Shown here in pieces: positions 10,244 through 32,500 of a stretch of DNA of 64,000 nt; positions within the stretch are counted from its first letter, which is position 1, and each line of letters begins with the position of its first letter. This DNA comes from a virus. The position numbers and the translations under genes are program-made. The notes below the pieces were generated by a model. That model saw only the letters and a program-made list of their open reading frames with translations, did not search any database and had not been told where the DNA came from. Where the stretch lies: IMG/VR virus record IMGVR_UViG_3300018429_000060, positions 1-64,000 of that record; one strand, 5' to 3'.

Positions 10244-10360
10244 CATCCGGCGAAGGCGTCCCTGCGGCTTGACAGCCCTCGCGGAGATGCTGCCCAGCAT
10301 CGACTGGCGATCACCGTGGCCGGATGCACACACCCTCGCGTTGTGTGCCCGGAGGCCACG

Positions 10361-12783: not shown

Positions 12784-12816
12784 ATCGGCACCCCGACCGG
12801 CTGAGGCGGACCCACC

Positions 12817-14241
12817 ATGGCCAACGCGTGGGGCGGCGGCGACCCGGTCGAGTCCACCGACCTCGACCCGTACGAGCTCAGCTGCGACTTCGTCGTGCAC
12901 CAGCCGCTGTCCATCACCCACATCCGGGTGTGGACCAGCGACGGTGAGGAGCCGTCGGTCAACCGCCGCGCCCGCGTCTGGTCGCCCGCCGGCGCCCAGC
13001 TGGGCATCGCCACGCTGCCGGACGACCTCCCCTCCGGCTGGACCGTCCACGCCCTGGACGCCCCGGTGGCCCGTGCCGCCGGGCAGGGGTTCGTCGCCAG
13101 CTTCAGCACCGGCGGCCGCTACGGCGCACTGCCCAACGCCCTGACCGCCCCGGTGGATTCCGCCGACGGCGCCGTCACCGCCCGCGCGGCCGCGACCGCA
13201 CCCAACGGCAACGGCAGCTTCGGCGCCCCAGGGGTGTTCCCCACCACGCCGTCGACGACGAACGCGTTCTACGGCATCGACGTCGTCTACGTCCTGGCCT
13301 CGGTCACCCCGGTGGTCATCCCCCGGCTCAACGTCGACCCGCCGGCCGCGGCGACACCGCACCGGTTCGGCCTGTTCACCGCGGCGACCGTGCTGGAGAA
13401 CGTGTCGCCGCACGCGCTCACCGGCATCGAGTACGAGGCGGTGTGCTCGACCCGCGTCGACGGCTACCCGGCGCCGTGCCGCCCCGGTGACGTCCTGAGC
13501 CGCACCAAGACACCGCAGCGGACCACCAGCATCGTCAACGCCACCCCGTTCGCCCTCTACGCCGCCGACTCCTGCGTGCTGGGCCGCGATCAGGCCCTCG
13601 CTCAGCGGCAGCTGCGGCAGCGGCTGGCCAACGGTGAGGAAACCGCCGTCGAGCGGATCGTGTTCAGCGGCGAGCTGGACCAGCTGCCGAACCTGCGCCG
13701 GCAGGCGCAGATCCTGCCCGGAGCGGCCCGCGGCCTCGACGAGGCCGTCGGCGAGCTGGAGCAGTGGCTGGCCACCACCTACGGCGGCGTCGGAGTGATC
13801 CACGCCCCGATGGCCGTGGCGAACCAGGCCCAACACCACGCCCTGCTCAGCGTCGCCGGGCCGCGCGCCCTGACGGTTCTCGGATCGGCGTGGGCGTTCG
13901 GCGCCGGCTACCTCGGCACCCCACCCGAGGACGCCCCCGGCCCGGACACCGGCGCGCTGTGGCTGTACGCGACACCGCCGCTGACCCTGCGCCGCTCGGC
14001 GGTCATCGAGCCGGCCGACTGGTCCAGCGGCGGGTTCGAGGCGGCCACCAACACCGGGTTCCTGCTGGCCGAACGCATGTACGTCGTGGACTGGCCCTGC
14101 GGTGTGGCCGCGGTGCAGACCACCCTCACCCGCCCCGGCTGGGTCACCCCCGGCGGCGCCGCCGTGGAGCTGAGTACCGATCCCCCGCCCGTCGACGGCG
14201 ACCCCGCCGTCGACGGTGACACCCGAGGAGGCCCCGGATGA
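12817..14241 (+). CDS. second capsid (pentamer-type) protein with N-terminal DUF4082-like domain
   Basis: N-terminal 'ITHIRVW...VWSPAGAQLG...SGW...L..PV...FVASF' resembles DUF4082; remainder 'VDPP...FGLF...GVIHAP...FGAGY' follows the capsid gene. Confidence 0.55.
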   Translation: MANAWGGGDPVESTDLDPYELSCDFVVHQPLSITHIRVWTSDGEEPSVNRRARVWSPAGAQLGIATLPDDLPSGWTVHALDAPVARAAGQGFVASFSTGGRYGALPNALTAPVDSADGAVTARAAATAPNGNGSFGAPGVFPTTPSTTNAFYGIDVVYVLASVTPVVIPRLNVDPPAAATPHRFGLFTAATVLENVSPHALTGIEYEAVCSTRVDGYPAPCRPGDVLSRTKTPQRTTSIVNATPFALYAADSCVLGRDQALAQRQLRQRLANGEETAVERIVFSGELDQLPNLRRQAQILPGAARGLDEAVGELEQWLATTYGGVGVIHAPMAVANQAQHHALLSVAGPRALTVLGSAWAFGAGYLGTPPEDAPGPDTGALWLYATPPLTLRRSAVIEPADWSSGGFEAATNTGFLLAERMYVVDWPCGVAAVQTTLTRPGWVTPGGAAVELSTDPPPVDGDPAVDGDTRGGPG

Positions 14242-15287
14242 CCGCACCAGCCCCGCCGGCCGCGTTGTGCGCCTCGTTCATCGGCGCCCGCGTGCTGCGC
14301 GTGACCCTCGTCGACGCCTGCGGCCGCCCCATCTGGGGACCGCGGTCGCAGGTGACCACCGAGGGATTCGTGTCCATCGAGATCGCCCCGGAGGTCGAGG
14401 AGGGCGACGCGATGAAGGTCAAGACCGCCGGTGGGGTGCTGTGCGTCAACGAACGCGGCGCCGACCAGGTGTCCTGGTACAACCTGACGATCGACTTCTG
14501 CCAGGTCGACCCGGACCTGTTCCTGATGATGCAGCGGACCTGGAAGCGGGTCACCGACGCCTCCCGGCAGACCACCACCGGGTGGCGGCAGGGCGAGAAG
14601 ATGTCCGACTCCCTCGGGTACGCGCTGGAGGTGTGGCCCAAGGCGTCCGGCAAGGGCGCCGGGCAGGCGTGTCTGCTCGGCGGCGGCGTCTCGGACCCGA
14701 CGCTGGTCCCCGGCGGCTACTTCGCCCTGCCGTGGGTCCTCGGTCTCGCACCGGAAGCGTTGACGCTGGAGAACGCGCCGACGTCGTTCAAGCAGAAAGG
14801 CCGCACCAAGCCCGGCAGCCTGTGGGGCCGCGGCCCGTACAACGTCACCCGCGACCTGGACGGTGACCCGGCGCGGCTGCTGGACCCGATCGACCCCGGC
14901 TTCTCGGTGCCGATCTGGACCCCGCCGTACATGACCTCCGGCGACCCGGACCACCTGCACGCCGAGATCGTCACCCTGGCCCCGCCGGTGCCGACCTGCG
15001 GCGCAGCGCCGGTGTGGAACCCCGACGCCGTCGTCCCGCTGCTGGCGGTGGCGCCCGGCGCGAACACCCGCACGGCGCAGCTGACGGTGACCAACTTCGC
15101 CCTGATCGGCAGCTCCGGGACGGTCAACTGGGGCGACGGCTCGATGGAGCCGATGCCGGGGTCCTCGGCCGGGGTGCTGTCCCACGCCTACCTGCCGGCG
15201 CACGACGGCACCGCGCAGACCATCACGTTCTACGCCGGCAACGGCCACGCCCCGGTCACCATCGCGTTCACCCCCGTGGCTCCGTAG
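14238..15287 (+). CDS. major tail protein with C-terminal PKD-like domain
   Basis: 'LRVTLVDACGRP...EGFVSI...EVEEG...LC...FCQVDP' actinophage major tail pattern; C-terminal NWGDGS...SHAY. Confidence 0.75.
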   Translation: MTAPAPPAALCASFIGARVLRVTLVDACGRPIWGPRSQVTTEGFVSIEIAPEVEEGDAMKVKTAGGVLCVNERGADQVSWYNLTIDFCQVDPDLFLMMQRTWKRVTDASRQTTTGWRQGEKMSDSLGYALEVWPKASGKGAGQACLLGGGVSDPTLVPGGYFALPWVLGLAPEALTLENAPTSFKQKGRTKPGSLWGRGPYNVTRDLDGDPARLLDPIDPGFSVPIWTPPYMTSGDPDHLHAEIVTLAPPVPTCGAAPVWNPDAVVPLLAVAPGANTRTAQLTVTNFALIGSSGTVNWGDGSMEPMPGSSAGVLSHAYLPAHDGTAQTITFYAGNGHAPVTIAFTPVAP

Positions 15288-15295
15288 CTCGACGA

Positions 15296-16300
15296 GTGAG
15301 CGACCCCTACAGCCGGCACCCCGCGCACACCCCCGCCGCCGCCGCGGCGGGGGTGTCGGCGTCACCGACCGCGGTGCCGCCGACCGGCGCCGCGTTGGTG
15401 GTGATCGACCCGGACGGCACCTGGGCGCTGGACGTACCCGGTGGGCCGTGCCGCACCTGGCCGGTGGCCCCCGCCTGCAGCTGCCTGCCGAACAACCCGG
15501 CCGAGTGGACCGCCGACCACCAGATCGCCGTCGAGACGGCCACCGAGATCCTGTGGGAGCTGACCGCCGGCCGCTACGGGCTGTGCCGCGAGACGGTGCG
15601 GCCCTGCCAGGAGCCGGCGCCGCAACAGTGCCCGCCGCGCGGCTGGCGCGGGGTGGGCGGCATGTACCCGGTGCTGGACGGCGGCCGGTGGACCAACGTG
15701 TCCTGCGGCTGCTCGCCGTCGGGGTGCAGCTGCTCGTCGGCCGCCGAGCTGGAGCTGCCCGGCCCGGTGCACACCGACCCGCCGGGCACCCTGCTGCCCC
15801 AGTACCCGATCCAGGTGTGGATGAACGGCGCCCAGCTCACCACCGGGTGGCGCCTCTACGACGGCAACCGGCTGATCCGCACCGACGGCGCCCCGTGGCC
15901 GATGTGCCAGCAGATGTGGCGGCCGCTGGTCGCCCCGGCCGGTGAGCCGGCCGCGGCCGCGGGCACGTTCGGGATCGTCTACTGGCGCGGCACCCCGGTG
16001 CCGGCCGGTGGCCGCCGCGCGGTGGCCCAGCTGGCGTGCGAGTTCTGGAAGGCGTGCCACGACAAGGACGGTTGCCGGATCCCGTCGCGGGTCGAGCTGG
16101 TGGAACGCGAGGGCGTCACCTACCGCATGATCGACAAGCAAGAGTTCCTGAAGCAGGGCCGCGTCGGCATCACCGAGATCGACCTCTGGCTCGCCGCGGT
16201 CAACCCGCGCAGCCGCCACAGCCCCTCGACCGTCTACTCCGTCGACGGCCCGGTGTGGCGCGTCGAGCGCACCACCGGCCGGTACGGCGGCCCGCCGTGA
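15296..16300 (+). CDS. head-to-tail adaptor
   Basis: 'ATEILWELTAGRYGLCRETVRPC', 'LACEFWKAC', 'REGVT', 'GITEIDLWLAAVNP'; position after major tail. Confidence 0.7.
   Translation: MSDPYSRHPAHTPAAAAAGVSASPTAVPPTGAALVVIDPDGTWALDVPGGPCRTWPVAPACSCLPNNPAEWTADHQIAVETATEILWELTAGRYGLCRETVRPCQEPAPQQCPPRGWRGVGGMYPVLDGGRWTNVSCGCSPSGCSCSSAAELELPGPVHTDPPGTLLPQYPIQVWMNGAQLTTGWRLYDGNRLIRTDGAPWPMCQQMWRPLVAPAGEPAAAAGTFGIVYWRGTPVPAGGRRAVAQLACEFWKACHDKDGCRIPSRVELVEREGVTYRMIDKQEFLKQGRVGITEIDLWLAAVNPRSRHSPSTVYSVDGPVWRVERTTGRYGGPP
15327..15356 (+). terminator. 13-bp stem hairpin after major tail gene
   Basis: ACACCCCCGCCGC-cgcc-GCGGCGGGGGTGT perfect inverted repeat. Confidence 0.5.
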
Positions 16301-16307
16301 TGCGCGC

Positions 16308-19300
16308 ATGACGCTGCCGCTGGTCCAGGACCAGGTGTTGTGGCCGCTGCTCACGGCGCTGCGTACCTCGGCCGCGGGCCAGTTCGGCCTCGTCCACCGC
16401 CCGGTGTGCGCGTTCGACGTGTACTGGTCCGACCATCCGATCCCGGCCGACCAGTGCGACTGCACCTGCGAGGACGAGGTGCCGGGCGGTCAGGGCGCGG
16501 CGTGGGTGCGGCTGGTCACCGCCACCAGCATCCTGGCGGCCAACACCACCGCCCGGCCGGTGCGGCAGCCGTGCGCCGGCGCCGACCTGCTGCTGACGAT
16601 CGAGGTCGGCGTGCACCGCTGCGCCCCGCTGCTGGACGGGACGAAGCCGCCCCACCAGCTGGCCGTCGATACGTACTCCGCTGGCATGGTCCAGGACGTT
16701 CTCGCGGTGCACCGGGCGTTCCTGTGCGCGCCGGCGCTGCGGGACCTCGACTGGCAGTTGAGCAGCCTCGGCCCCTCGGGGCCGCAGGGTGGCTGCGCCG
16801 CGGTGATCGGCACCGCGCAGGTGATCGTGTCCAACTGCTGCCCGATCGTGCTGACCGTCGGCTGGGTACCGGACCCGGACGTGCTGCTCGGTGTCCACGT
16901 CACGGGCGGTGGCTACGGCCGCCACGGCGCCCTGCTCGACTGGGGCGACGGCACCCCACCCGTGCCGATCGGCCCCACGGTCGCGCCGCTGCAGCACACC
17001 TACGCCGTGCCCGGTACCTACCAGGTGATCGTGGTCGACCGGCAGGAACCCACCGCGCGCACCACGGTCGCGATCACGGTCAAGGACCACGAGCCGATCG
17101 CGCACGTGTTCCTCGACTCGGAGGACGACTGGGCGGTGCTGCTGTGGCTCGACGAGCCCGACGACGGCACCGTGTACCTGGTCGACTGGGGCGACGGGTC
17201 GTCGCTGCAGCCGATGGCCGGGCAGCAGCTGGACCGGGTGCCGCCCAAGCCGCGAGTACCGCACCCCTACACCAAGCTCGGCCGCTACCCGATCACCGTC
17301 ACCGACACCCGCAGCCGCCGCGTCACCCACACCGGCGCCGAGGTCGGCGACCTCGGTGTCCTGCCCTCCTTCGACACCCCGGCGCGGCCGCGGCTGGAAG
17401 TGCTGTGGATGGCCACCGGCGCCACCTACCGCGTCGACGGGTTCATCACCGAGACCGGAGTGGTGCCGGCGTCCGGGCGGATCGTCATCGACACCGACGA
17501 GGACCTGCCCCCCGGCCAGCACAGCGTGGTCATCCGCGAGGAGATCAACGGGATCGTGCGGCGCGCCACCCGACGCTCCTACCTGATCCCGTCGCCGTGG
17601 GACTGGCGCCTCGGGGTGTGGACCACCTGGGGGCCGACCCCTGGGCAGCCGGGGATGCAGACGGTCAACCTGACCCCGCGCACCGCCCGCACCCCGTGCG
17701 CCATCGACTGGGGCGACGGCTCCCCCATCGAGACCATCCCGGCCGCCGGCACCGCCTCGCACAACTACCGGGTGCCGATCACCGGCGCCGGGGTGCGGCT
17801 GACCGTCACCGAGACCGTCACCGACGAGATCACCGACCCGCGCACCACCAGCCGCACCCTGGGCAGCCCCCGCTACGTCGGCACGCCGATGCTCAACGCC
17901 CGCCAGACCCGCGCGGTCGACCTGGACGTGGCCGGTCTGGACCACGACATCGACGACGACCGGTACGTCGTCTACTGGGGCGACGGCACCAGCGACTCCT
18001 TCGGCGCGCAGGGCCGCTGGTACCCGGCCAACCACCGCTACGCCAACGACGGCGTCTACACGATCACCGTCGACAGCCCCGGCATGGCCGCCCCGGTGAT
18101 CCGCACCGCCACTGTCATCAGCTACCCGGCGCCGGTGGTCACCATCGTCGAGGCCCGCAACCAGCAGGGCGAGCACCTGGACCCGGACCGGCTGACCGCG
18201 CAAGTCGCGATCGACAACCGCGCCGTCGGCGGCGACTGCCGGGTCGAGTTCGGCGACGGCTCCCCCGCCCACATCAGCGGCGAGCAGGACACCGTCACCC
18301 ACGCCTACCCCCGAGCGGGCCGGTACTGGGTGGTCGTGACCGCGCTGGCCGACACGACCGCGAAAGGACGCGCCTCCGTGTCCGTGCCATTCGGCCAGGA
18401 ACGCACCTTGATCTTCACCGTGACCGGGCACGGCTACACCGCCAGGGTCACGATCACCGGCAGCACCCCCGGCAAGACCGTGCAGGTGGTGTGGACCAGC
18501 GGCACCTCACCGCAGCCGGTGCCGCCGTCCGGGTTCGTCGAGCACACCTACCCGCCGATCGACGACATCTACAACGTCACCGTCTCCTACGACGACGAGT
18601 CCGAGAGCGTCGACGTCGCGGTGATCATCCCCTTCCCCGACGACACCGACACCGCCGGCGACGGCTCCGGGGGCGTGGGGTCGGAGCTGGAGCTGCGGCC
18701 GGTCGGCGGGCTCACCGACCGGCAGGACCCCTACCTGTGGTGGAACGTCGGCGCGCACGACCGGCAGCTCAAGGCACGGTGGCTGTTCGGCACCCAGCAG
18801 GTGATCATCTACTGGGGCGACGGCGCCATGGAGGTCATCGGCGTCGGCCAGGCCGTCACCCACGACTACGACCACCTCGGCGGCTACCTGCTACGGCTGC
18901 GCGAGATCGGCCCCGGCGCCTGGATCACCGCCGCCCAGGTGATCATCCGCGGGCAGCGGCCGCCGGCGCAGCTCACCGCGCACCCCGACGACCCGCGGAC
19001 GCTGCGGCTGCAGTTCGGTGACCTCGACGCCTCCGAGCTGATGCCCCGCTGGCGCGTGTTCTGGGCCTGGCCCGACCAGCACCACGACGACGTGTGGGCC
19101 CCCGCCGGTGGCCACGTCGACCATCCCGTCCCGGCGGGCAAGTACCTGCTGCATGTGCTCGACCTCGGGTCCAAGTGGTTCACCGAGATCGACACCGAGG
19201 TGCCGCCGGTCGACCCGGCCGTCACCCTCACCGCCACCGGCCGCGAGGTGCAGCTGAGCGTCGACCCCACCTCGGCCGGCGCCGAGCTGCGCGTCGACTG

Positions 19301-19451
19301 GGGCGACGGCTCCCTGCCGGAGCCGATCACCGGCGACACCGCCAGCCACACCTACCCGCCCGCCGACACCACGACGTTCGTGGTGCAGGTGTGGCACGTC
19401 GACGAGTCCAGTTCCGCCAGCCACGCGATCACCCTTGGAGAGCAGCCGTGA
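16308..19451 (+). CDS. tail-terminator-like N-terminal domain fused to multiple PKD-like repeats
   Basis: N-terminal 'GAAWVRL...VGVHRCAP...GPQGGC'; six WGDG, one FGDG and degenerate repeats, most followed by H-x-Y. Confidence 0.7.
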   Translation: MTLPLVQDQVLWPLLTALRTSAAGQFGLVHRPVCAFDVYWSDHPIPADQCDCTCEDEVPGGQGAAWVRLVTATSILAANTTARPVRQPCAGADLLLTIEVGVHRCAPLLDGTKPPHQLAVDTYSAGMVQDVLAVHRAFLCAPALRDLDWQLSSLGPSGPQGGCAAVIGTAQVIVSNCCPIVLTVGWVPDPDVLLGVHVTGGGYGRHGALLDWGDGTPPVPIGPTVAPLQHTYAVPGTYQVIVVDRQEPTARTTVAITVKDHEPIAHVFLDSEDDWAVLLWLDEPDDGTVYLVDWGDGSSLQPMAGQQLDRVPPKPRVPHPYTKLGRYPITVTDTRSRRVTHTGAEVGDLGVLPSFDTPARPRLEVLWMATGATYRVDGFITETGVVPASGRIVIDTDEDLPPGQHSVVIREEINGIVRRATRRSYLIPSPWDWRLGVWTTWGPTPGQPGMQTVNLTPRTARTPCAIDWGDGSPIETIPAAGTASHNYRVPITGAGVRLTVTETVTDEITDPRTTSRTLGSPRYVGTPMLNARQTRAVDLDVAGLDHDIDDDRYVVYWGDGTSDSFGAQGRWYPANHRYANDGVYTITVDSPGMAAPVIRTATVISYPAPVVTIVEARNQQGEHLDPDRLTAQVAIDNRAVGGDCRVEFGDGSPAHISGEQDTVTHAYPRAGRYWVVVTALADTTAKGRASVSVPFGQERTLIFTVTGHGYTARVTITGSTPGKTVQVVWTSGTSPQPVPPSGFVEHTYPPIDDIYNVTVSYDDESESVDVAVIIPFPDDTDTAGDGSGGVGSELELRPVGGLTDRQDPYLWWNVGAHDRQLKARWLFGTQQVIIYWGDGAMEVIGVGQAVTHDYDHLGGYLLRLREIGPGAWITAAQVIIRGQRPPAQLTAHPDDPRTLRLQFGDLDASELMPRWRVFWAWPDQHHDDVWAPAGGHVDHPVPAGKYLLHVLDLGSKWFTEIDTEVPPVDPAVTLTATGREVQLSVDPTSAGAELRVDWGDGSLPEPITGDTASHTYPPADTTTFVVQVWHVDESSSASHAITLGEQP

Positions 19452-20305
19452 GCAGAACCGCCACCCGCCCCGCCACCGACACCGATGCCGAGCCCGTCGA
19501 CGGCGCCCCGGACCCGGCCATCCCGCCGGCCGAGGACGCGGCGGCGCTGCGCTGGGTGCCGAAGGCGATCGCCGAGCTCGGCGTCGTCGCCGTGCCGACC
19601 AACGTCGTCGGCGAGTTCACCATGGACTGGGGCGACAGCAAGCGGACCGACAGCTCGGCCGGGGCACCCCCGGTCAGCCACGCCTACGCCAGCGCCGGCG
19701 CGTACACGGTGACCCTGACGCAGGGCGACGCGATCGTCGCCAAGACGCAGGTGGTCATCCGCGCCGGCAAGGGCCCGGCGGTCACCGCGGCGCCGGCCGC
19801 CGACAACCCGAACATCATCGAGCTGACCTTCGCCGACGACCCGGCCGAGATCGCCTCCCAGTACGCGATCACCTGGAACGTCGGCGGTGTCGCCGAGGTC
19901 GTGTTCGCGCCGAAGGGGACGGTGCTGTCCCACGGCTACACCGCCGGCGACCACGTGATCGTGGTCCGCGACCTCTACACCCGCCGCGCCGTCCGCCTGG
20001 AGGTCACCGTGGTCGACGCCACCTTCGATCCCGACTTCTCGGCCACGCAGGGCGAGAACACCATGACGGCGCTGGTCACGCTCACTGCGGTGGCCACCGT
20101 CAAGGACGTGCTCGTCGACTGGGGCGACGGTCAGCAGAGCACCGTGGCGGCGGCCGAGGTGGGCGGCAAAGCGACCCACGCCTACGCGGCCAACGACACC
20201 TACATCATCCAGGTCGTCTACGCCGACGGCTCCACCGACGGCTCCGCGCGCACCGTGACGATCCCGTTCCCGGCCCGCGACGGCCGGGGCAGCAACCGGC
20301 CATGA
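19448..20305 (+). CDS. PKD-repeat protein
   Basis: GTGA coupled; MDWGDS...SHAYASAGAYTVTL and VDWGDG...THAY. Confidence 0.75.
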   Translation: MSRTATRPATDTDAEPVDGAPDPAIPPAEDAAALRWVPKAIAELGVVAVPTNVVGEFTMDWGDSKRTDSSAGAPPVSHAYASAGAYTVTLTQGDAIVAKTQVVIRAGKGPAVTAAPAADNPNIIELTFADDPAEIASQYAITWNVGGVAEVVFAPKGTVLSHGYTAGDHVIVVRDLYTRRAVRLEVTVVDATFDPDFSATQGENTMTALVTLTAVATVKDVLVDWGDGQQSTVAAAEVGGKATHAYAANDTYIIQVVYADGSTDGSARTVTIPFPARDGRGSNRP

Positions 20306-22728
20306 CCAAACCGGTCAGCCGGCTGGAGTGGTTCCCGGATCCGGTCACCACGCTCGCGGTCCGCGCGGGCTGGTTCGGCGCGGGCTGGCACTACACGCTG
20401 TTCTGGGGTGACGGCAGCAGCCAGCGGGTGCTGCACACCCAGCCGCCGGTCCGCCACCGCTACCCGGCCGCCGACACCTACACCCTGACCGCGGTCAGCG
20501 AGATCACCCAGGTGCAGGTGTCCACCCGGATCACCGTGCGGCCGCAGCGGACACCGCAGGTGAGCGCCGACCACCTCGGCGGCGGCCGGGTGCGGCTGAC
20601 CATCGTGGGCGGCTGGCGCGGTGACGTGCTGCACCGCGTCGACTGGGGCGACGGCATCCCGGCGCAGGAGTACTCCGGCACCCAGCTCACCCCCGAACAC
20701 CAGTACCCGGCCGGGATCGAGAACCCCACGGTGCTGGTGCAGGACGTGCCGGCGCGGCGCGCGGTCACCCTGGTGGTGCCGATCGACCCGTCCGAGCCGC
20801 CGCCGACCGACGCCCGGTTCGGCTGGCACGTCACCCGCCTCTGGGACGACCGGCCGGGGTCGCCCGGCAACATCGAACGCGCCGACGGGGTCGTCCTCGG
20901 CGCCGGCGTGCCGGCCGGCGCCGTCGTCGGCCTGTCCTACATCGGCGGTAGTGACGTCTACGCCACCGCCGACCGGCACGGCCACGTCACCTTCCCCCAG
21001 ATCACCTGGATCGCCGGCTCCCGCCAGTTCATGCCGCCGTTTCGCAGCGCCCGGATCTGGTACCCCGACCGGCTGCACTGGCCCACGGTGCAGCTGCCCT
21101 GCCTGGTCCGCCGCGACGAGGTCCAGGACGTCGTCCCGGTCTACACCATCGACCCCGGCGGCGACCCCATGGTGCTCACGATCGGGGTGGCCAACCCCCA
21201 GGCCGGCACCTACCGGGTGCTGTGGGGCGACGGCACCGCGCAGCAGGACGTCGTCTGCGACGGCCGCGCGTTGCGGGCCAGCCACCGCTACCGCAGCGGC
21301 GCGCGGGTGATCATCACCGTCACCGACCCGGACGGCAACAGCGGCGAGCGGGTCGTCGCCGCCCCGGAGATCGGCGGCCCGTGGTGGGGGCCGGACGCGC
21401 TGGGCAAGCCCCGGCTCAAGGTCGGCGTCCGCGACCTCGCCGGCGGCGACTGGTTCACCCCGCTGTCGGTCGACTGGGGCTGGGACGGCCAGTCGGCCCG
21501 CTTCTGGGGCCACCCCACCGCCCCCGACGGCAAGCAGAACGCGCTCGAGGAGTGGTACCCGAACGACCTGCGCGGCCAGGACGTGACCGTGTGCGTGTCG
21601 GCGCCGCTGCGCCCGGCGCTGATCGTCACCCGCCGCATCCCGCCGGCCGGATCCCGAAACCACGTCCAGCCCGATCCGCCGGGCTCGACCGGAAAGTCGA
21701 TCAACAAAGGAGAATCCGTGTCACAGACCCATCCGCCCACCCTGGCCGCCGAGGGCTACGTCACCCCCGGCGGCAGCGCCGGCATCCAGCTGCAGCACCT
21801 GTGGACCTGGGTGCAGGACGTCCGGTTCAAGTCCGCGGCGTTCGTCGGCGGCCTCAGCTCGACCTACACCGCGACCCTCACCGACCACGACATCCTCGGC
21901 CGGGTCGCCCGCGCCGAGGTGCAGCTGGCCGAGGTCGACCCCGGCGAGTACGAGGTCGTCGCCGTGGCCAACGACGGCGCGTTCGAGATGAAGCACCGGC
22001 TGATCGTCGAGGCCGTCCACGCCGGCACGATCATCGCCACGCTCACCCCGCTCGACGACCAGGGCAAGGTCGACCTGCGCGTCGAGCCGATCAGCCGCAA
22101 CGCCGCGTGGGCCGACGCCAGCACCCCGGCCAACCAGGGCGACGGCGAGGACTGGTTCGGGCTGGTCTTCCAGCGGCCCTCCGACACCGCCCACGCCACC
22201 CTGATCATCGCGGGGGTGAAGCCCGGCACCTACCCGATCGCGGTGCGTCAGCGGTTCCACGGCGGCAAGACCATCGTCGTCAACGGCACGGTGACCGTGC
22301 CCGCGGACCCGACCAAGCCGGCCAAGGGCGAGCTGCCGCTGGTCTACACGCACCCCGTCGACACCAACAAGCTCGGCAACGGCTCCTCGGTCGAGCACGT
22401 CATCGACTTCGGCGACGAGCACGACCAGGCCAACGCCCGCTACGGCGTCGCCGTCGAGCTGGTCGTCACCGGCCCCAACGGGCAGAAGCCCGACCTGCCG
22501 GCGGATGTCCGGGCGGCGCTGCGCGACCTGCGGCCGCTGACCGTGGCCCGCGCCACCGACCACGTCACCCTCTACGGAGGGAACCCCGATGTGTTGCGGG
22601 GCAACAAGAACTTCAAGATCAAGTTGGTGGTGACCATCACCCCGGTGCCCACCCCGGCCGGCTACTCCGAGGACGACGACCCGACCGCCCCGGACCACGC
22701 CGCCGAGCTGGCCACGAGCACCGCATGA
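20302..22728 (+). CDS. PKD-repeat/Ig-like protein
   Basis: ATGA coupled; LFWGDG, VDWGDG, VLWGDG motifs; beta-rich C-terminal half. Confidence 0.7.
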   Translation: MTKPVSRLEWFPDPVTTLAVRAGWFGAGWHYTLFWGDGSSQRVLHTQPPVRHRYPAADTYTLTAVSEITQVQVSTRITVRPQRTPQVSADHLGGGRVRLTIVGGWRGDVLHRVDWGDGIPAQEYSGTQLTPEHQYPAGIENPTVLVQDVPARRAVTLVVPIDPSEPPPTDARFGWHVTRLWDDRPGSPGNIERADGVVLGAGVPAGAVVGLSYIGGSDVYATADRHGHVTFPQITWIAGSRQFMPPFRSARIWYPDRLHWPTVQLPCLVRRDEVQDVVPVYTIDPGGDPMVLTIGVANPQAGTYRVLWGDGTAQQDVVCDGRALRASHRYRSGARVIITVTDPDGNSGERVVAAPEIGGPWWGPDALGKPRLKVGVRDLAGGDWFTPLSVDWGWDGQSARFWGHPTAPDGKQNALEEWYPNDLRGQDVTVCVSAPLRPALIVTRRIPPAGSRNHVQPDPPGSTGKSINKGESVSQTHPPTLAAEGYVTPGGSAGIQLQHLWTWVQDVRFKSAAFVGGLSSTYTATLTDHDILGRVARAEVQLAEVDPGEYEVVAVANDGAFEMKHRLIVEAVHAGTIIATLTPLDDQGKVDLRVEPISRNAAWADASTPANQGDGEDWFGLVFQRPSDTAHATLIIAGVKPGTYPIAVRQRFHGGKTIVVNGTVTVPADPTKPAKGELPLVYTHPVDTNKLGNGSSVEHVIDFGDEHDQANARYGVAVELVVTGPNGQKPDLPADVRAALRDLRPLTVARATDHVTLYGGNPDVLRGNKNFKIKLVVTITPVPTPAGYSEDDDPTAPDHAAELATSTA

Positions 22729-23498
22729 GCACACCGTCCGCATCCGCGGCGCTGCGCCGCGCCACCGCCGGCCCCGGCCGCTACATCCTGGAGGTGGCGC
22801 TGGCCAACACCGGCCAGGTCGAGCTCACCACCTGGCAGGCCACCCTCACCCTCCCCGACGGCGCCGGCATGGTCGCCAAGGCCAACGCCGCCGTCGACAA
22901 CACCAGCGCACCGCACGCCTACACGGTCACCCCGACCGGCCTCGGCCCCCTCGCTCCGGGGCAGCGGCAGGTCGTCGCGGTCGAGGTGTACGGCACGGGC
23001 CGGGCGCCGGTGGCGGCCCAGTTCACTGCCCAGGCCGACAAGGTGAAGGTCAAGGCCGCGGTGGCGGTGATGGCGGTGCTCATCGACGGCCAGTCGTGCA
23101 AGGCCGACGAGTGCACCTGGCCCGGCTCCACCACCATCGACAAGGGTGTCTCCGGTATCGAGATCGAGATCGGCACCGGCAGCGGCGCCGGCGGCGGCCT
23201 CGGCCTCGGCGGCGGCGGCGGTGGCGGCGCCCAGACCAACTTCAAGGTCCTCATGGAGTGGACCAACGACGCCGGCGGCGGTGGTGGCGCCGGCGGCGGC
23301 GGCGGGGTGTCCATCGGCGGCGCGGAGGCCCCGGTGCAGCAGTGGGTCGACGCCGGCGAGCAGGCCCAGAAGCAGCACCAGGGCAACCAGGGCGGGCAGG
23401 ACGGGTCGCAGTACAACAAGGACCCGTTCGCCGAGCTCGGCGCGAAGATCGACCAGCTGGGCGACCGCGTGGTGGCGCTGGAATCGAAGGCCGCCTGA
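22725..23498 (+). CDS. CBM2-like domain protein with Gly-rich linker and coiled-coil tail
   Basis: 'EVALANTG...TTWQATLTLPDG...YTVTP...LAPGQ' resembles CBM2; poly-Gly tracts. Confidence 0.55.
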   Translation: MSTPSASAALRRATAGPGRYILEVALANTGQVELTTWQATLTLPDGAGMVAKANAAVDNTSAPHAYTVTPTGLGPLAPGQRQVVAVEVYGTGRAPVAAQFTAQADKVKVKAAVAVMAVLIDGQSCKADECTWPGSTTIDKGVSGIEIEIGTGSGAGGGLGLGGGGGGGAQTNFKVLMEWTNDAGGGGGAGGGGGVSIGGAEAPVQQWVDAGEQAQKQHQGNQGGQDGSQYNKDPFAELGAKIDQLGDRVVALESKAA

Positions 23499-24046
23499 TG
23501 GGGCCGCAGAGGACCACCGCGTTCGCCGACTGGGTCACCGACCCCACCGCCGCCCCGGCGGCCGCGGCCGCGCCGACCCCCGGCGGCGGGATGGGCGGCG
23601 GCCAGACCGGCAGCACGCCACCCTGGCAGGACTGGGCCGGCGGCGGCATCGGCGGCGACTCCGGGTCACCACTGCCGGTCGTGGTGCGCTGCCCGATCTC
23701 CTACGACGCCGCGGCCGCGCAGGTCACCCTCCCGTCGGCGCAGAAGCCCGGCTACAGCGTCACGGCGTTCGTGGGCATCGACGGTGGCTTCACCGGCGCC
23801 GACCTGCCCACCGCGGTCAACGCCCGACTGCTCGACGACACCACCGTGCTCGTCAAGCTCACCGGCGCCGGCGCCACCTCCCACGGGCCCGAATACACCC
23901 CGGCGCCCACACCGGGGCAGAAGCGCACGGCGGTGCCGGTGCCGCCCGGCAAGCCCTACGTCGCCGTGGTGGTGTTCCCGGCGGCCGGCGGCATGGGCGG
24001 CGGCCAGCCCATCACCAAGCCGGGCATGGAAGGCGGTCAGCCGTGA
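23498..24046 (+). CDS. hypothetical Gly/Pro-rich protein
   Basis: TGATG coupling; repeated GGMGGGQ. Confidence 0.55.
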   Translation: MGPQRTTAFADWVTDPTAAPAAAAAPTPGGGMGGGQTGSTPPWQDWAGGGIGGDSGSPLPVVVRCPISYDAAAAQVTLPSAQKPGYSVTAFVGIDGGFTGADLPTAVNARLLDDTTVLVKLTGAGATSHGPEYTPAPTPGQKRTAVPVPPGKPYVAVVVFPAAGGMGGGQPITKPGMEGGQP

Positions 24047-25356
24047 CCGACCCCGACACCGACCAGCACCGGGGCGGCTGTAGCCGCGGCTACACCGTGG
24101 TCACCGCCGCGGTGGACGACCTGCACGCCACGGTCCGGCGGATCGAGGACCTGCTGCGGCAGGGCCCGCCGACCCGGCGGACACTGCGGCCACCCGTGGA
24201 CGGCATCTACGCCCACAACAAGGGCGGCGGCTGGTGGTTCCTCACCTGGCACCAGGTGCCCGGCGCCACCGGCTACGAGCAGGACCATCCCGACACCGGC
24301 GTCGGCCCGACCCACGGCCCGTCGACCACCATCTTCGCCGTCGCCAGCGGCGACCAGCGGGTGATCCGCGTGCGGACGGTCAGCGACGGCCACAACTCCC
24401 CGTGGGTGAAGTACACCCTGTGGTGGGACGGCCGGCTGACCTACGAGATCGAGGGTGGAGATCCGCCGCCGCCGGCCGACCCGGCCGTGCCGGTGCTCGA
24501 CCGGGTGACCGCCGGGCACACCTCGATCGCCGCCTGGTGGACCTCGTTCGACGTCACGCAGTGGGAGACCAGGCTGGTCGACGCCGACGGCGAGCAGCTG
24601 CAGGGGCACAACGTCACCCAGACCAACGCGGTGTTCAACGAGCTGCGGCCGTCCACCACCTACGGCCTGGCGGTCCGCGCGGTCGACGTCGACACCGGCC
24701 GCCGATCCGACTGGACCGACACCAGGTGGAAGACCACCCTCGCGGAAGGGGAGGTGCCGCGCCCCGACCGGCCGACCGGGTTGTTCGCTCACTGCATCGC
24801 CGACACCACGGCGAAGGTCGAGTGGGACCAGCACACCCAGGTGGACGCGTGGGAGGTGTGGATCGGCGACGACCGCGACGCCGGCGCGATCGCGACGTCC
24901 ACCCCGCTGGTGAAGCTGCTCGGCCTGCAGCCCGACACCGAGTACACGGTCCACGTGGTCGCCGTCGTCGGCGGCGAACCCGGCGACGCCGACTACGCCG
25001 AGTCGGAACCGGCCAGTCACACGTTCCGCACGCGGGCGACGATGCTGCCGCCCGACGAGGACCCACCGGGTGACATCGGCGCCGATCTGCCGGCACCGCA
25101 GGAGCTGATGGTGCGGGCGTCGTCGTCGACGACGGTGGAGGCGGTATGGCGCGACGCCCGCCCCGACACCGGGCAGGGCAACTTCTACGTGGCCACCTGC
25201 AACGGGCGTGACCTGGTGCGGGTCGACGGCAGCGGCATCACCTTCACCGACCTGCCACCGGACGAGCCGGTGACGGTGTCGGTGTACGGGGTGATGGGGA
25301 AGAAGCTGACCGGCGTCGCCACCAAGGGCACGACCATGAAGGGAGCCGGCTGGTGA
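24043..25356 (+). CDS. fibronectin type III repeat protein
   Basis: 'LRPSTTYGLAVRAVD', 'GLQPDTEYTVHVVAV', 'FTDLPPDEPVTVSVYGV' FN3 signatures. Confidence 0.8.
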   Translation: MTDPDTDQHRGGCSRGYTVVTAAVDDLHATVRRIEDLLRQGPPTRRTLRPPVDGIYAHNKGGGWWFLTWHQVPGATGYEQDHPDTGVGPTHGPSTTIFAVASGDQRVIRVRTVSDGHNSPWVKYTLWWDGRLTYEIEGGDPPPPADPAVPVLDRVTAGHTSIAAWWTSFDVTQWETRLVDADGEQLQGHNVTQTNAVFNELRPSTTYGLAVRAVDVDTGRRSDWTDTRWKTTLAEGEVPRPDRPTGLFAHCIADTTAKVEWDQHTQVDAWEVWIGDDRDAGAIATSTPLVKLLGLQPDTEYTVHVVAVVGGEPGDADYAESEPASHTFRTRATMLPPDEDPPGDIGADLPAPQELMVRASSSTTVEAVWRDARPDTGQGNFYVATCNGRDLVRVDGSGITFTDLPPDEPVTVSVYGVMGKKLTGVATKGTTMKGAGW

Positions 25357-25973
25357 CCACGACCGAGAAGCCCCGCGTCGAGCGGATCATCATGCCGGGC
25401 TGGATCCGGCACGGCTACGGCACCAACCCGAACTCGCGGGCCTACTGGTGCGCGGAGAACCACGCCGGCTGCGGCCCCATCGAGTCCGAGCCGCAGAGCG
25501 TGGAAGCCCCCAAGGGGTTCCCCCGGTCGGGACCACCGGACGGGCAGCTCGCCTCCGGTGGCCACGTCCGGTTCGGCAGCCTGGACAAGGTCACCGCCCC
25601 GGACGGATCACCCTGGCCGGCGACCACCCTCACCGTCGGCGCACGAGTGCGGATGCGGTGGTGGCTCACCGCGGTGCACAAGACCGAGTCGTGGGAGTAC
25701 TGGATCACCCGCGACGGGTGGGACCGCACCCAACCGCTGACACGGGCCCAGCTGGAACCGGCGCCGTTCAGCCGCATCACCTGGCCGTGCCCCGACGGCG
25801 GCTGGACCTGCCGACTGCCGGCCGAGGACGTGCACCACTGGATCTGGCTGCCTCCGGGCAAGGAAGGCGAGCACGTCATCTACGGCATCTGGAACGTCGG
25901 CGACACCGGCAACGCCTTCTACACCACCATGGACGTCCGCATCGTCCACCCCGCGGCGGCTCCCGCCCGGTAA
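25353..25973 (+). CDS. AA10 (CBM33) lytic polysaccharide monooxygenase-like protein
   Basis: 'HGY...SRAYWC...EPQSVEAPKGFP..GPPDGQLASGG', 'WWLTAVHKT..WEYWIT', 'HVIYGIWNVGDTGNAFY..MDV' match CBP21/GbpA-type AA10. Confidence 0.9.
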   Translation: MTTTEKPRVERIIMPGWIRHGYGTNPNSRAYWCAENHAGCGPIESEPQSVEAPKGFPRSGPPDGQLASGGHVRFGSLDKVTAPDGSPWPATTLTVGARVRMRWWLTAVHKTESWEYWITRDGWDRTQPLTRAQLEPAPFSRITWPCPDGGWTCRLPAEDVHHWIWLPPGKEGEHVIYGIWNVGDTGNAFYTTMDVRIVHPAAAPAR

Positions 25974-26032: not shown

Positions 26033-27376
26033 ATGCGTACCGTGGATCCGCAGTCGGTCGCGTTCCGCGAGGCCACCCCGGCCGACCTCGAACCCGGCAC
26101 CTGGGAAGACCTGGTCCACCGCGGCCTGGTCCTGCCAGCCCCCACCGGCGAGCCGCTACGCCTGCCCGACGACTGGGAACCCGATCGGTGGGACGCCGCA
26201 CGCACCGTCGCCAAGACCCGCGAGCAGGCCGCGGCGGCCGCCGCGGCGCGCGGCGACGACCCCACCGCCTACGGCGCACTCGCCCAGCAGCTGGATCAGC
26301 TGGCCGCGGCCGCCGCCGGCGGACTGTGGGTGCCGTGGCTTGTCGACGCCGCGCGCCTCACCGGCTACCCGGTGTTCGTCGAGCCAGGGTGGAACGGCCG
26401 CGGCAACGGCGGCCTGCGGCTGCTCGAGGTCGTGGTCGGCCACCACACCGCCACCCCGGACAGCGTCGCCGGCGACTACCCCTCGCTGCGAGTGGTGCGC
26501 GACGGCCGGGCGGGCCTGCGCGGGCTGCTGTCCCAGCTCGGCATCGGCCGCTCCGGCGCGATCTACGTCCTGGGCAACGGTCTCGCCTACCACGCCGGCG
26601 TGTCCGCCTACGCCGGCTACTACGACCTCAACGACGAGGCCCTGGGCATCGAGGCCGAGGACTCCGGCGACGGCACCTGGACGGCGGCGCAGCTGGACTG
26701 CTACCCGCGCCTGGTGGCGTCGCTGCTGTTCTACATGCGCCGCGGCGCCGAGCGGTACTGCTCGCACCGCACCTGCGCCCTGCCCGCCGGGCGCAAACCC
26801 GACCCCGCCGGCATCGCCGACGCGTGGATGCACACCCGTGTGCGGCACCTGCTCGGCGACCCCACCCACCGCATCCCGAGAGGCAACAGCATGACCAGTG
26901 CCGAGCAGATCGCCGACGCCGTCTTGAACCGTACGTTCGTCCGGCACGGTCCCAACATCCCGCACGCCGGGCAGCCCACCAACCTCGGGGCGATCGTCGC
27001 GTGGCTGGACGCCATGGTGGTCAATGGGCCGTGGGCTTACCCCGGCGCGCAGCAGCTGCTCGTCGACGTTGCCGCCACCCGTGTCCTGGTGACCACCCTG
27101 GCCGGTCGCGACCCGCAGCTGCCGCTGGACGCCGAGCAACTGGCGGCGCTGCTCAACACCAACATCGACCAGGAAGCGGCCGCCCTCGGTGACCGGCTGA
27201 CCGCCCAGATGGTCGCAGCCCAGGCCGCGCTGGCCGCTCAACTGACCCAATACCTGGACTCGATCCAGGATCGGTTCCTGCAGATCGTGCAGGCCGACAA
27301 CCAGGACCAGGCCCGCGCGTTCTTCGACCAGCTTCGGGCGATGATCCCGCCGCCCGCGCACCAGCTCACCGCGTAA
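26033..27376 (+). CDS. endolysin, N-acetylmuramoyl-L-alanine amidase (Amidase_2)
   Basis: 'GHHTA', 'AYHAG', 'LGIEAE', 'SHR...RKPDP' Zn-amidase motifs. Confidence 0.85.
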   Translation: MRTVDPQSVAFREATPADLEPGTWEDLVHRGLVLPAPTGEPLRLPDDWEPDRWDAARTVAKTREQAAAAAAARGDDPTAYGALAQQLDQLAAAAAGGLWVPWLVDAARLTGYPVFVEPGWNGRGNGGLRLLEVVVGHHTATPDSVAGDYPSLRVVRDGRAGLRGLLSQLGIGRSGAIYVLGNGLAYHAGVSAYAGYYDLNDEALGIEAEDSGDGTWTAAQLDCYPRLVASLLFYMRRGAERYCSHRTCALPAGRKPDPAGIADAWMHTRVRHLLGDPTHRIPRGNSMTSAEQIADAVLNRTFVRHGPNIPHAGQPTNLGAIVAWLDAMVVNGPWAYPGAQQLLVDVAATRVLVTTLAGRDPQLPLDAEQLAALLNTNIDQEAAALGDRLTAQMVAAQAALAAQLTQYLDSIQDRFLQIVQADNQDQARAFFDQLRAMIPPPAHQLTA

Positions 27377-32203: not shown

Positions 32204-32259
32204 CGGAGTCCGCTCCCCTTTCCTGCTCCAGCTCAAACCCCAGCACGCGCAATCCTGCA

Positions 32260-32500
32260 TCAGCGCGTCAGCTCCAACGCGTCGACACGCGGAACCACGA
32301 CCACGCACACACGCCAACACCTGGACACGCAGTAGCGCGTCACCGCAGAAGCGCCTCAAGGCACCAGCGCGTCAGCAACAACACGCTGAACGGCCGACAC
32401 GCATCTACCCTGTCCCGCTACCGCACTGTCACGCGTGCACGCTTGAGCAGTGTAGCGGCTTACTTCTGACCCGCTGTCAGGCGTCAACACTGACGCGTAA
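32260..32500. repeat. candidate centromere (parS-like) short repeats
   Basis: GCGCGTCA at 32263, 32335, 32367; related ACGCGT/GCGTCA variants at 32277, 32431, 32481 and 32491 upstream of parA. Confidence 0.45.

What the first reader, a model, noticed from the sequence alone, without database searches (positions are those of the whole stretch)
16308..25973. About 10 kb carbohydrate-adhesion cassette (PKD repeats, CBM2-like, FN3, LPMO) inside the tail operon
Seen: seven genes linked by overlapping stop/start codons, with about a dozen W/FGDG PKD-like motifs, a CBM2-like domain, at least three FN3 repeats and the AA10 domain, none with an evident signal peptide. Known: single Ig-like domains decorate many phages, and PKD/FN3/CBM2/AA10 are also the modules of actinomycete chitinolytic systems. 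Inference: a heavily decorated particle that binds chitin/cellulose, fungal hyphae or host surface glycans; a candidate undescribed virion appendage system.
Basis: partly seen in the sequence, partly recalled or inferred. Interest (0 to 1): 0.8.

Follow-up and report, generated by a model that had tools for sequence, protein, structure and literature searches.

The report
Phage neck fibres plus masked LPMO
A prophage of a high-GC actinomycete carries seven back-to-back late genes: a tail-terminator protein drawn out into a long chain of Ig-like (PKD) domains, more PKD, CBM2-fold and FN3 proteins, and a copper oxidase (AA10 LPMO) that has no export signal and whose catalytic first histidine is masked by a short conserved leader, so this is probably a virus-displayed adhesion apparatus with a latent wall-cutting enzyme.

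Summary
There are seven + strand genes (16308-25973) and all six junctions overlap stop and start codons. I count 13 [WF]GD[GSE] PKD-like repeats, one CBM2-fold domain, 3-4 FN3 modules and a complete AA10 domain. None of the seven has a signal peptide.

- Gene 1 is the phage's tail terminator (lambda gpU fold) fused to about 860 aa of PKD repeats, so at least that array should sit at the virion neck.
- Related terminators are fused to PKD, CBM2-like or FN3-like modules. In the one related provirus the PKD genes lie beside a PKD-tailed major tail protein.
- Binding to chitin or cellulose is not shown. The CBM2-fold domain lacks the usual tryptophan platform.

The LPMO belongs to a single clade of 27 signal-peptide-less AA10 clusters. 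The copper site is intact and the residue before His1 is always K or R. Here and on one other phage-like contig it is coupled to an FN3 gene; here it also lies just upstream of an amidase endolysin.

My best reading is neck and tail Ig-like adhesion fibres plus a pro-LPMO, unmasked by proteolysis, that attacks host wall glycan. PKD decoration of phages is known. The terminator fusion and the masked LPMO are new variants.

The parts
14238..15287 (+). Major tail protein (phrog_792) with one C-terminal PKD-like domain (residues 276-348). It lies upstream of the cassette and shows that the tail tube is decorated too.
   Evidence: L096 homologue is fused to several PKD repeats
15296..16300 (+). Head-to-tail adaptor (phrog_783, E 3e-67), directly upstream of the cassette.
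16308..16850 (+). g1 N-terminal domain: tail terminator (lambda gpU-like fold, phrog_810 family).
16875..19451 (+). g1 C-terminal array: 8 PKD-like domains detected (7 with the [WF]GDG motif), with room for 2-3 degenerate ones.
   Evidence: 42-43% identical over about 540-610 aa to the free-standing PKD protein L096:7522-9171
19448..20305 (+). g2: protein of three PKD-like domains (two with the motif); 53% identical to L096:9935-10735.
20302..22728 (+). g3: 808 aa with three N-terminal PKD-like repeats, a fourth at residues 681-752, and the rest unassigned (probably more beta-sandwich domains). No match in PDB sequences or in 50,697 phage records.
22725..23498 (+). g4: CBM2-fold domain (residues 1-115), a Gly-rich disordered tether (116-233) and a C-terminal helix (236-254).
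23498..24046 (+). g5: Gly/Pro-rich 182-aa protein of unknown fold. It is the conserved partner of g4 (41% identical copy next to the g4 homologue in L161).
24043..25356 (+). g6: short N-terminal helix plus 3-4 FN3 modules. It is the conserved, translationally coupled upstream partner of the LPMO.
25353..25973 (+). g7: AA10 LPMO with no signal peptide. A 19-aa hydrophilic leader ends ...PGWIR, then His20-Gly-Tyr. His109 and Phe189 complete the copper site.
26033..27376 (+). g8: endolysin (Amidase_2, phrog_880), 60 bp downstream of the LPMO. No glycosidase domain is recognised.

Best explanation
This is a late-gene block of a temperate actinomycete siphovirus distantly related to the Wizardvirus / cluster-B-like actinophages. 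It has two parts.

Part 1 (g1-g5) is a virion display system. g1 is the tail terminator, the ring that caps the tail tube under the head. Its C-terminus is extended by at least 8 PKD/Ig-like domains, so several flexible fibres tens of nanometres long should project from the neck. The ring of six and the fibre length come from what is known of terminators and PKD domains, not from this work. The tail tube protein also carries a PKD domain. g2 and g3 (PKD chains) and g4/g5 (CBM2-fold head on a glycine-rich tether with a terminal helix, plus a partner) are probably further decoration or fibre subunits made in fixed ratio through coupled translation. Their likely job is weak, multivalent sticking to glycans on or around host hyphae before the tail tip engages.

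Part 2 (g6-g7) is an FN3 protein coupled to a pro-LPMO. The enzyme is made in the cytoplasm with its catalytic His blocked by a conserved leader that always ends in K/R. It becomes active only after cleavage at K/R|His, by a phage or host protease that I could not identify. It then oxidatively nicks a beta-1,4 wall glycan, either peptidoglycan strands or the hyphal surface glycan, at entry or alongside the amidase endolysin at lysis.

Shown here: gene structure, domain folds, the terminator identity, the signal-less clade with an intact copper site, and the conserved g6-g7 pair. Inferred: virion attachment of g2-g7, the cleavage, the substrate and the timing.
For: - Phage context: MuF/portal, capsid, major tail, adaptor, tape measure and minor tail families; the layout resembles Gordonia phage Halo3; the record is an IMG/VR provirus.
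- g1 N-domain: phrog_810; BLASTP to Halo3 gp25 E 1e-8; 154 representatives, mostly stand-alone proteins of 160-195 aa; AlphaFold pLDDT 90.7; Foldseek top hits are lambda gpU and other terminator or neck chains.
- Fusions of this terminator recur: P0130-P0135 carry WGDG repeats, P0139 a CBM2-like module, P0154 an FN3-like module.
- Relative L096 carries the PKD genes between a PKD-fused major tail protein and the adaptor, and one of its PKD proteins has a weak CBM_2 hit.
- No signal peptide on any of the seven proteins. No terminator-like site on the + strand between 10 and 29 kb.
- LPMO: the 27 nearest clusters all lack signal peptides and have K/R at position -1, while the 90 cellular homologues carry Sec signals. 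H20, H109 and F189 are invariant. The clade is one branch, SH-aLRT 99.
- The best solved relative is SliLPMO10E (5ftz, E 8e-40). This is LpmP, which binds peptidoglycan and speeds its hydrolysis by lysozyme (PMC5094447 Table 1; PMC9040799 section 9).
- The g6-g7 pair, with the same ATGA/GTGA overlap and the same AAGGGAG ribosome site, recurs next to a MuF gene on metagenome contig L113.
- The adjacent endolysin has only an amidase domain.
- Precedent for a latent viral LPMO that helps infection: entomopoxvirus fusolin (PMC5094447 section 18).
Against: - There is no direct evidence that g2-g7 are in particles; none has a recognisable virion anchor.
- The g4-g5 pair also sits among non-phage genes in a Streptomycetaceae genome, so it need not be a virion part.
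- The CBM2-fold domain lacks the binding tryptophans.
- A neck-mounted fibre is far from the tail tip.
- No protease or cleavage is shown. An uncleaved LPMO would be only a binding protein.
- Copper loading and a reductant at the site of action are unexplained.
- The provirus may be rearranged or defective: tail chaperone genes lie on the other strand at 48-49 kb, a gene that follows the terminator in L096 lies at 7-459(-), and a ParA/integrase block splits the structural genes.
Confidence: 0.55

Rival explanations
1. Lysis accessory. g6-g7 belong to the lysis module, not the virion. After holin action the pro-LPMO reaches the wall, is trimmed by host extracellular trypsin-like proteases, and cuts glycan strands oxidatively. 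That supplies the glycan-cleaving activity that the amidase-only endolysin lacks. Only the PKD genes are structural.
For: g7 lies 60 bp upstream of the endolysin, which has only Amidase_2. LpmP-type LPMOs speed peptidoglycan hydrolysis (PMC9040799). K/R at -1 fits trypsin-like cleavage. No fused, virion-anchored forms of the clade were found among longer proteins.
Against: On L113 the pair lies next to a MuF head gene, and no lysin was seen in that 3.7 kb fragment. g7 is translationally coupled to the upstream structural-type genes, not to the lysin. LPMO turnover is slow compared with lysis. This overlaps the best explanation, which leaves the timing open.
Confidence: 0.2
2. Auxiliary metabolic or 'moron' cassette. 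These would be chitin- or cellulose-degrading helper genes captured from an actinomycete chitinolytic system, benefiting the lysogen or its kin after lysis, as proposed for prophage AA10 genes in soils.
For: CBM2 + FN3 + AA10 are the modules of actinomycete chitinases and LPMOs; the best structural match of g4 includes the Chi18aC chitin-binding domain. Prophage AA10 genes are reported as carbon-cycling AMGs (PMC13507307). The leaderless clade is sister to actinobacterial secreted AA10s.
Against: None of the seven proteins can be secreted by a living lysogen. The cassette begins inside the tail terminator gene and is coupled throughout, so it should be expressed late. Loss of the signal peptide is ancient and conserved in 27 clusters with a conserved leader. 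The aromatic chitin-binding positions are not kept in g4 or g7.
Confidence: 0.12
3. Decaying or rearranged prophage. The cassette would be an evolutionary leftover of repeated Ig-like domain duplication with no current function, and the LPMO only a glycan-binding module because its His can never be freed.
For: Structural genes are scattered on both strands and split by a plasmid-like module. CheckV completeness is 75%. The cassette is very rare: one partial relative in IMG/VR, none in 50,697 phage records, and none in the roughly 800 actinomycete genomes searched with g3 (401 Pseudonocardiaceae) or g4 (401 Streptomycetaceae, where only the g4-g5 pair turned up once).
Against: All seven frames are open, with GC3 of 0.9-1.0 typical of expressed genes. 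The overlaps are intact. The copper-site residues and the leader are conserved across the clade. g6-g7 is conserved at 42-49% identity on another contig.
Confidence: 0.1

Closest known systems
Ig-like/PKD decoration and modular adhesins of phages (T4 Hoc; gut-phage BACON/PKD/Ig adhesins, PMC13370021)
   Same: PKD/Ig-like domains strung on virion proteins with no role in assembly, thought to give weak glycan adhesion; modular and shuffled between genes.
   Different: Here the carrier is the tail terminator, so the display site is the neck. The array is unusually long (at least 8 domains, about 860 aa). It comes with separate PKD, CBM2-fold and FN3 proteins in one coupled block. The host is a filamentous-type high-GC actinomycete, not a mucosal bacterium. 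Binding has not been tested.
Lambda gpU and other siphophage/myophage tail terminators (PDB 3fz2, 8iyd, 9oab, 8fwm, 9khy)
   Same: The fold of g1 residues 1-180 and its gene position right after the head-to-tail adaptor.
   Different: Known terminators are 130-175 aa with no appended domains. No sequence similarity to any PDB chain. g1 has a Cys-rich core (conserved C34, C89, C105, C140).
SliLPMO10E / LpmP of Streptomyces (PDB 5ftz; PMC9040799) and CBP21 (2bem)
   Same: Small single-domain AA10 at about 40-50% identity, with the His brace, axial Phe and EPQSVE motif. LpmP gives a precedent for action on peptidoglycan together with a hydrolase.
   Different: Those enzymes have Sec signal peptides whose removal frees His1. 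g7 instead has a 19-aa hydrophilic leader ending in R, lacks the aromatic residue before EPQSVE, has an extra two-Cys loop, and is phage-encoded.
Viral AA10s: entomopoxvirus fusolin (PMC5094447; baculovirus GP37 from my own knowledge) and prophage AA10 'AMGs' (PMC13507307)
   Same: A virus-borne AA10. Fusolin is stored inactive and released to breach a chitin barrier and aid infection.
   Different: Fusolin is secreted and processed in eukaryotic cells and masked by crystal packing, not by an N-terminal leader. The one prophage AA10 that PMC13507307 cloned carries a signal peptide, and the paper frames these genes as carbon-cycling genes.
Modular actinomycete chitinases such as Chi18aC/ChiC (CBM2 + FN3 + catalytic domain)
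   Same: The same three kinds of module (CBM2 fold, FN3, chitin-type catalytic unit).
   Different: Here the modules are split over separate, unsecreted polypeptides, and the CBM2 binding tryptophans are not conserved. The architecture of ChiC is from my own knowledge.

Membership tests
AA10 LPMO (Pfam LPMO_10, PF03067) | Full-length match to the family profile | tested here: met
   E 1.9e-40, 140 bits against a cut-off of 23; profile 1-183 on residues 20-195; confirmed in the genome search.
AA10 LPMO (Pfam LPMO_10, PF03067) | Histidine-brace residues and the axial Phe are present | tested here: met
   H20 aligns with residue 1 of mature 5ftz and CBP21. H109 and F189 are invariant in the 27-member clade.
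AA10 LPMO (Pfam LPMO_10, PF03067) | The first His is the free N-terminus of the mature protein (normally via signal-peptide cleavage) | tested here: not met
   As encoded, 19 residues precede His20 with no hydrophobic core or AxA site. Homologous leaders confirm the GTG start. Whether another protease frees His20 cannot be tested here.
AA10 LPMO (Pfam LPMO_10, PF03067) | Copper-dependent oxidative cleavage of a polysaccharide | not testable with these tools
   Needs enzyme assays.
PKD domain (PF00801 / PF18911) | Profile match above the curated cut-off | tested here: met
   g1 68 and 58.5 bits, g2 33.2 and 25.3 bits. g3 scores only 17.2 bits against 23.5, so it is below cut-off. The repeats are mutually alignable with an in-house HMM.
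CBM2 (PF00553) | Sequence profile match | tested here: inconclusive
   No Pfam hit for g4 at E 0.01. The L096 counterpart scores 21.3 bits against a cut-off of 24. The family profile hits the CBM2 chain 2rtt at E 4.9e-4. UniRef names homologue P0127 'CBM2 domain-containing'.
CBM2 (PF00553) | Beta-sandwich fold of CBM2 | tested here: met
   Foldseek top hits are 3ndy_E, 6qfs, 2rtt and 1exg, TM 0.75-0.79, rmsd 2.4-2.8, on a model with pLDDT 73-93 over residues 1-115.
CBM2 (PF00553) | Exposed tryptophan platform that binds the polysaccharide | tested here: not met
   In the profile alignment to 2rtt, the three tryptophans of Chi18aC within the aligned stretch fall opposite non-aromatic columns of the g4-family profile; g4 has one Trp in the whole domain (W37, opposite a Trp of 2rtt in the conserved strand). 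Sequence alignment only; which residues form the platform is from my own knowledge.
FN3 (PF00041) | Profile match above cut-off, repeated | tested here: met
   g6 whole protein 55.8 bits, two stretches. Module by module: 24.9, 25.5 and 16.4 bits, and none for a possible fourth.
Siphophage tail terminator (lambda gpU-like) | Terminator fold | tested here: met
   AlphaFold pLDDT 90.7, pTM 0.84. Foldseek gives 3fz2 E 1e-6 with target-normalised TM 0.63, and many neck or terminator chains follow.
Siphophage tail terminator (lambda gpU-like) | Gene sits between the head-tail connector genes and the tail genes | tested here: met
   It directly follows the adaptor here, in L096 and in Halo3.
Siphophage tail terminator (lambda gpU-like) | Forms a hexameric ring on the tail tube | not testable with these tools
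   Needs cryo-EM or a multimer model.
Virion-associated peptidoglycan-degrading enzyme / endolysin partner | Presence in particles, or an effect on lysis | not testable with these tools
   Only adjacency to the endolysin (60 bp) and the LpmP precedent are available.

The most novel reading that the evidence does not exclude
The leaderless AA10 clade is a phage-specific family of pro-LPMOs. The conserved 10-26 aa leader ending in K/R acts as a masking and/or targeting peptide. It keeps the copper site unformed in the cytoplasm and is cut off by a phage maturation protease or a host trypsin-like protease. The enzyme, working with its FN3 partner on or beside the virion, then oxidatively opens peptidoglycan or the hyphal surface glycan. 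That would be the first LPMO used by a bacteriophage for entry or lysis, and the first zymogen-type control of an LPMO.
Probability: 0.3. Interest if true: 0.85.

Novelty: new variant of a known kind. Interest (0 to 1): 0.66.

Why it matters
Phage decoration. It would show that the tail terminator can serve as a display platform, giving neck fibres built from Ig-like domains. It would also show that soil actinophages, and not only mucosal phages, invest about 10 kb in modular adhesion domains.

LPMOs. A free N-terminal histidine is taken as obligatory and is normally produced by signal-peptide cleavage. A conserved clade that lacks the signal but keeps every catalytic residue and an invariant K/R before the His makes two questions directly testable: can LPMOs be held as zymogens, and do viruses of bacteria use oxidative glycan cleavage against peptidoglycan? 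An LPMO that boosts an amidase endolysin would also be of practical interest for enzyme-based lysis of hard-to-lyse actinomycetes.

Tried and rejected
- IMG/VR scans with g7, the adaptor and a g6 alignment found no relatives.
- The clade alignment A1 found only signal-peptide LPMOs at provirus edges, plus one lambdoid case.
- The genome-contig scan returned 80 loci, all with Sec signals.
- A degenerate DNA motif for [KR]HGYxxxPxSRAxxC in metagenome contigs gave 50 stretches: 6 were LPMOs and only one of those (L113) was leaderless.
- In 401 Pseudonocardiaceae genomes g3 gave one marginal match (E 9e-4, two in-frame stops) and the ten best g7 matches fetched all have Sec signals. The g4 search of 401 Streptomycetaceae genomes found one genome with only the g4-g5 pair.
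- tblastn of the g1 PKD array and of g3 against 50,697 phage records found nothing. g7 hit only eight unannotated Listeria or Enterococcus 'phage' contigs, which look like host LPMO genes.
- PDB sequence searches for g3, g4 and the terminator profile found nothing useful.
- ESM Atlas scores for the middle of g3 and for g5 stayed below 0.9, so they are leads only.
- Rejected: a Tat signal in g4 ('ALRRATAG'), because these residues are strands of the folded domain.
- Rejected: a g6-g7 frameshift fusion. There is no slippery heptamer, and a good AAGGGAG ribosome site precedes the GTG.
- The longer-protein search found no fused form of the leaderless clade.
- The careful tree search did not finish. 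The quick IQ-TREE result is what I report.

Full report
**Context.** The window is the first 64 kb of a 91.3 kb IMG/VR provirus record with 70-75% G+C, so the host is a high-GC actinomycete; I did not determine the genus. PHROG and Pfam scans give the following order:
- a MuF/portal-like protein (7406-9988)
- a large capsid protein (10244-12736, phrog_777)
- a DUF4082-bearing second capsid gene (12805-14241)
- the major tail protein (14238-15287, phrog_792)
- the head-to-tail adaptor (15296-16300, phrog_783)
- the seven-gene block
- an Amidase_2 endolysin (26033-27376)
- a block with ParA (31367-32185, minus strand) and a tyrosine recombinase (33114-34058)
- only then the tape measure (37174-40326) and minor tail genes

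The capsid's nearest deposited relatives are Gordonia, Mycobacterium and Microbacterium phages at under 30% identity. Gordonia phage Halo3 shows the same capsid, major tail, adaptor order.

**The observation.** A third-position GC frame plot and the junction sequences define seven + strand genes whose stops and starts overlap at all six junctions. I count 13 [WF]GD[GSE] motifs in g1-g3. Pfam PKD passes its cut-off in g1 and g2. g6 has FN3 modules: two at about the Pfam cut-off, a third weak, and a possible fourth that gets no hit. g7 is a full-length LPMO_10 domain (E 1.9e-40). None of the seven has an N-terminal hydrophobic core. No + strand terminator-like site lies between 10 and 29 kb; this is weak evidence for one transcript. 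The description is therefore correct. The one qualification is that the cassette starts with a core tail gene and does not sit among tail genes in the usual sense.

**Gene 1 is the tail terminator with a PKD chain.**
- Residues 41-172 match phrog_810 and align with Halo3 gp25, the gene after the adaptor (E 1e-8).
- An exhaustive search found 154 representatives, mostly stand-alone proteins of 160-195 aa.
- With that alignment AlphaFold gives pLDDT 90.7. Foldseek ranks lambda gpU first (E 1e-6), followed by neck or terminator chains of P74-26, Milano, Mu, R4C and pyocin R2.
- No PDB sequence matches the family profile.

So about 860 aa of PKD repeats hang from a protein that, in known phages, forms the ring at the head-proximal end of the tail tube. 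The fusion is not unique. Six other representatives of 288-815 aa carry WGDG repeats after the same domain, one carries a CBM2-like module and one an FN3-like module. This is the strongest argument that these three module types are displayed on particles in this lineage.

**The one related provirus.** IMG/VR holds one partial relative (L096, 61 kb record). There the major tail protein is itself fused to PKD repeats. After it come a free PKD protein 42-43% identical to the g1 array, two more PKD proteins (one 53% identical to g2), a g3-like protein whose C-terminus has a weak CBM_2 hit, a coiled-coil protein and an FN3 protein. Only then come the adaptor, an unfused terminator and the tape measure. 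That record has no LPMO. The PKD block therefore moves within the structural module, and the LPMO is an add-on.

**g4 and g5.**
- g4 has only two homologues among 5.8 billion clustered proteins, from Sphaerisporangium (which UniRef calls 'CBM2 domain-containing') and Streptomyces humidus.
- AlphaFold models residues 1-115 as a confident beta-sandwich, followed by a disordered glycine-rich stretch and a terminal helix. The best structural matches are CBM2 domains, including the Chi18aC chitin-binding domain. The family profile finds that chain by sequence at E 4.9e-4.
- In that alignment the three tryptophans of Chi18aC within the aligned stretch fall opposite non-aromatic columns of the g4-family profile, so the fold does not prove sugar binding.
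- In a Streptomycetaceae genome the g4-g5 pair lies among ABM, APH and IMPDH genes with no phage gene in the 7.6 kb contig. The pair is therefore not phage-exclusive, and its role is the least certain part of the cassette.

**The LPMO.**
- His20 aligns with residue 1 of the mature chains of 5ftz and CBP21. 5ftz is SliLPMO10E/SLI_3182 (PMC5094447, Table 1), which is LpmP. LpmP binds peptidoglycan strongly and speeds its hydrolysis by lysozyme and CslZ in a copper-dependent way (PMC9040799).
- The 26 nearest clusters (48-64% identity) all lack a signal peptide. Each has a 10-26 aa hydrophilic leader whose last residue is K or R. The next 90 homologues all have classical Sec signals.
- The same holds for 80 genome loci, nearly all 13 IMG/VR loci and 10 Pseudonocardiaceae loci, which all have Sec signals.
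- H20, H109 and F189 are invariant, and the leader is conserved within each of two subclades.
- In a quick maximum-likelihood tree the 27 form one branch (SH-aLRT 99) next to the secreted actinobacterial enzymes. This fits a preprint's remark that AA10 entered phages once (bioRxiv 10.64898/2026.08.04.742344).
- Only one of the 26 other leaderless clusters comes from a named NCBI genome. The rest are metagenome contigs of at most 100 kb, several of 35-67 kb. This suggests mobile DNA but does not prove it.
- The one leaderless homologue whose DNA I could read (L113) has the same arrangement: a g6 homologue (42% identity over its full length) overlapping the LPMO start by ATGA behind the same AAGGGAG site, then a chaplin-like small ORF and a MuF gene related to the window's.
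- No fused form of the clade was found among longer proteins.
- g7's subclade has lost the aromatic residue before EPQSVE, which CBP21 and SliLPMO10E carry. That the residue matters for chitin binding is from my own knowledge.

**Mechanism.** A protein that keeps every copper ligand, yet is made without the processing that frees His1, either works as a binding module only or is activated by another cut. Strict K/R at position -1 and a conserved leader favour a cut. The protease is unknown; it could be a phage maturation protease or a host trypsin-like enzyme. Masking would also protect the cytoplasm from a redox-active copper site. The substrate is inferred from the LpmP precedent and from the amidase-only endolysin next door. 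Entomopoxvirus fusolin is a precedent for a viral AA10 that is stored inactive and then released to help infection (PMC5094447).

**What is known.** PKD and Ig-like modular adhesins on phages are published, including Hoc and gut-phage adhesins (PMC13370021). Prophage AA10 genes were reported in 2026 as carbon-cycling genes, and the one cloned there carries a signal peptide (PMC13507307). In the searchable literature I found no tail terminator carrying an Ig-like array, no signal-less LPMO clade and no LPMO tied to phage entry or lysis. No deposited phage among 50,697 records matches the g1 array, g3 or (credibly) g7.

**Caveats.** The provirus may not be a tidy, functional phage. A Phage_TAC_16 chaperone gene lies on the minus strand at 48646-49392. 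A homologue of the gene that follows the terminator in L096 lies at 7-459 on the minus strand. A plasmid-like module also splits the structural genes. Virion presence of g2-g7, the cleavage, the substrate and the binding targets are all inferences.

**Verdict.** I class this as a new variant of known phage decoration, joined to an unusual masked LPMO that deserves experiments.

Noticed in passing
L011:9920-10594 (IMGVR_UViG_2836662228_000003): A lambdoid enterobacterial prophage (tail fibre J, Lom-like, side tail fibre genes) carries an AA10-like ORF right after the tail fibre genes. It has only a 7-aa leader (MSNITPF) before an HGH motif. This may be a second, independent case of a phage LPMO without a signal peptide.
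   Followed up: partly
L113:2653-2859: A 68-aa chaplin-like ORF (Pfam ChpA-C, E 4e-5) lies between the leaderless LPMO and the MuF gene on the phage-like metagenome contig. Chaplins are hyphal surface proteins of streptomycetes.
   Followed up: no
window 7-459 (-), 48045-49392 (-), 37174-40326 (+): Tail genes are scattered. A Phage_TAC_16 chaperone and a second chaperone-like gene lie on the minus strand about 8 kb beyond the tape measure gene. A homologue of the gene that follows the terminator in L096 lies at the very start of the window on the minus strand.
   Followed up: partly
window 31367-34058: A ParA ATPase (minus strand) and a tyrosine recombinase sit between the endolysin and the tape measure gene.
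   Followed up: no
window 12805-14241: The second capsid gene (phrog_779 region) has an N-terminal DUF4082 domain (E 9e-17), so the capsid may carry an added domain too.
   Followed up: no
L161:1824-3238 (Streptomycetaceae genome G421, contig C314): The g4-g5 pair (51% and 41% identity) occurs among ABM monooxygenase, APH and IMP dehydrogenase genes, with no phage gene on the 7.6 kb contig.
   Followed up: partly
proteins P0139 and P0154: Tail terminators of the same family are fused to a CBM2-like module (P0139, 283 aa) and to an FN3-like module (P0154, 319 aa).
   Followed up: partly
proteins P0020 and P0121: For two LPMO genes, one of the leaderless clade and one divergent at 34% identity, the listed longest contig has the same length (40,685 bases), so they probably lie on one contig.
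   Followed up: no
L096:14194-16125: The g6-like protein of the related provirus is 643 aa. After two FN3 modules it has about 350 aa with no family match, at the place where the window has the LPMO.
   Followed up: no
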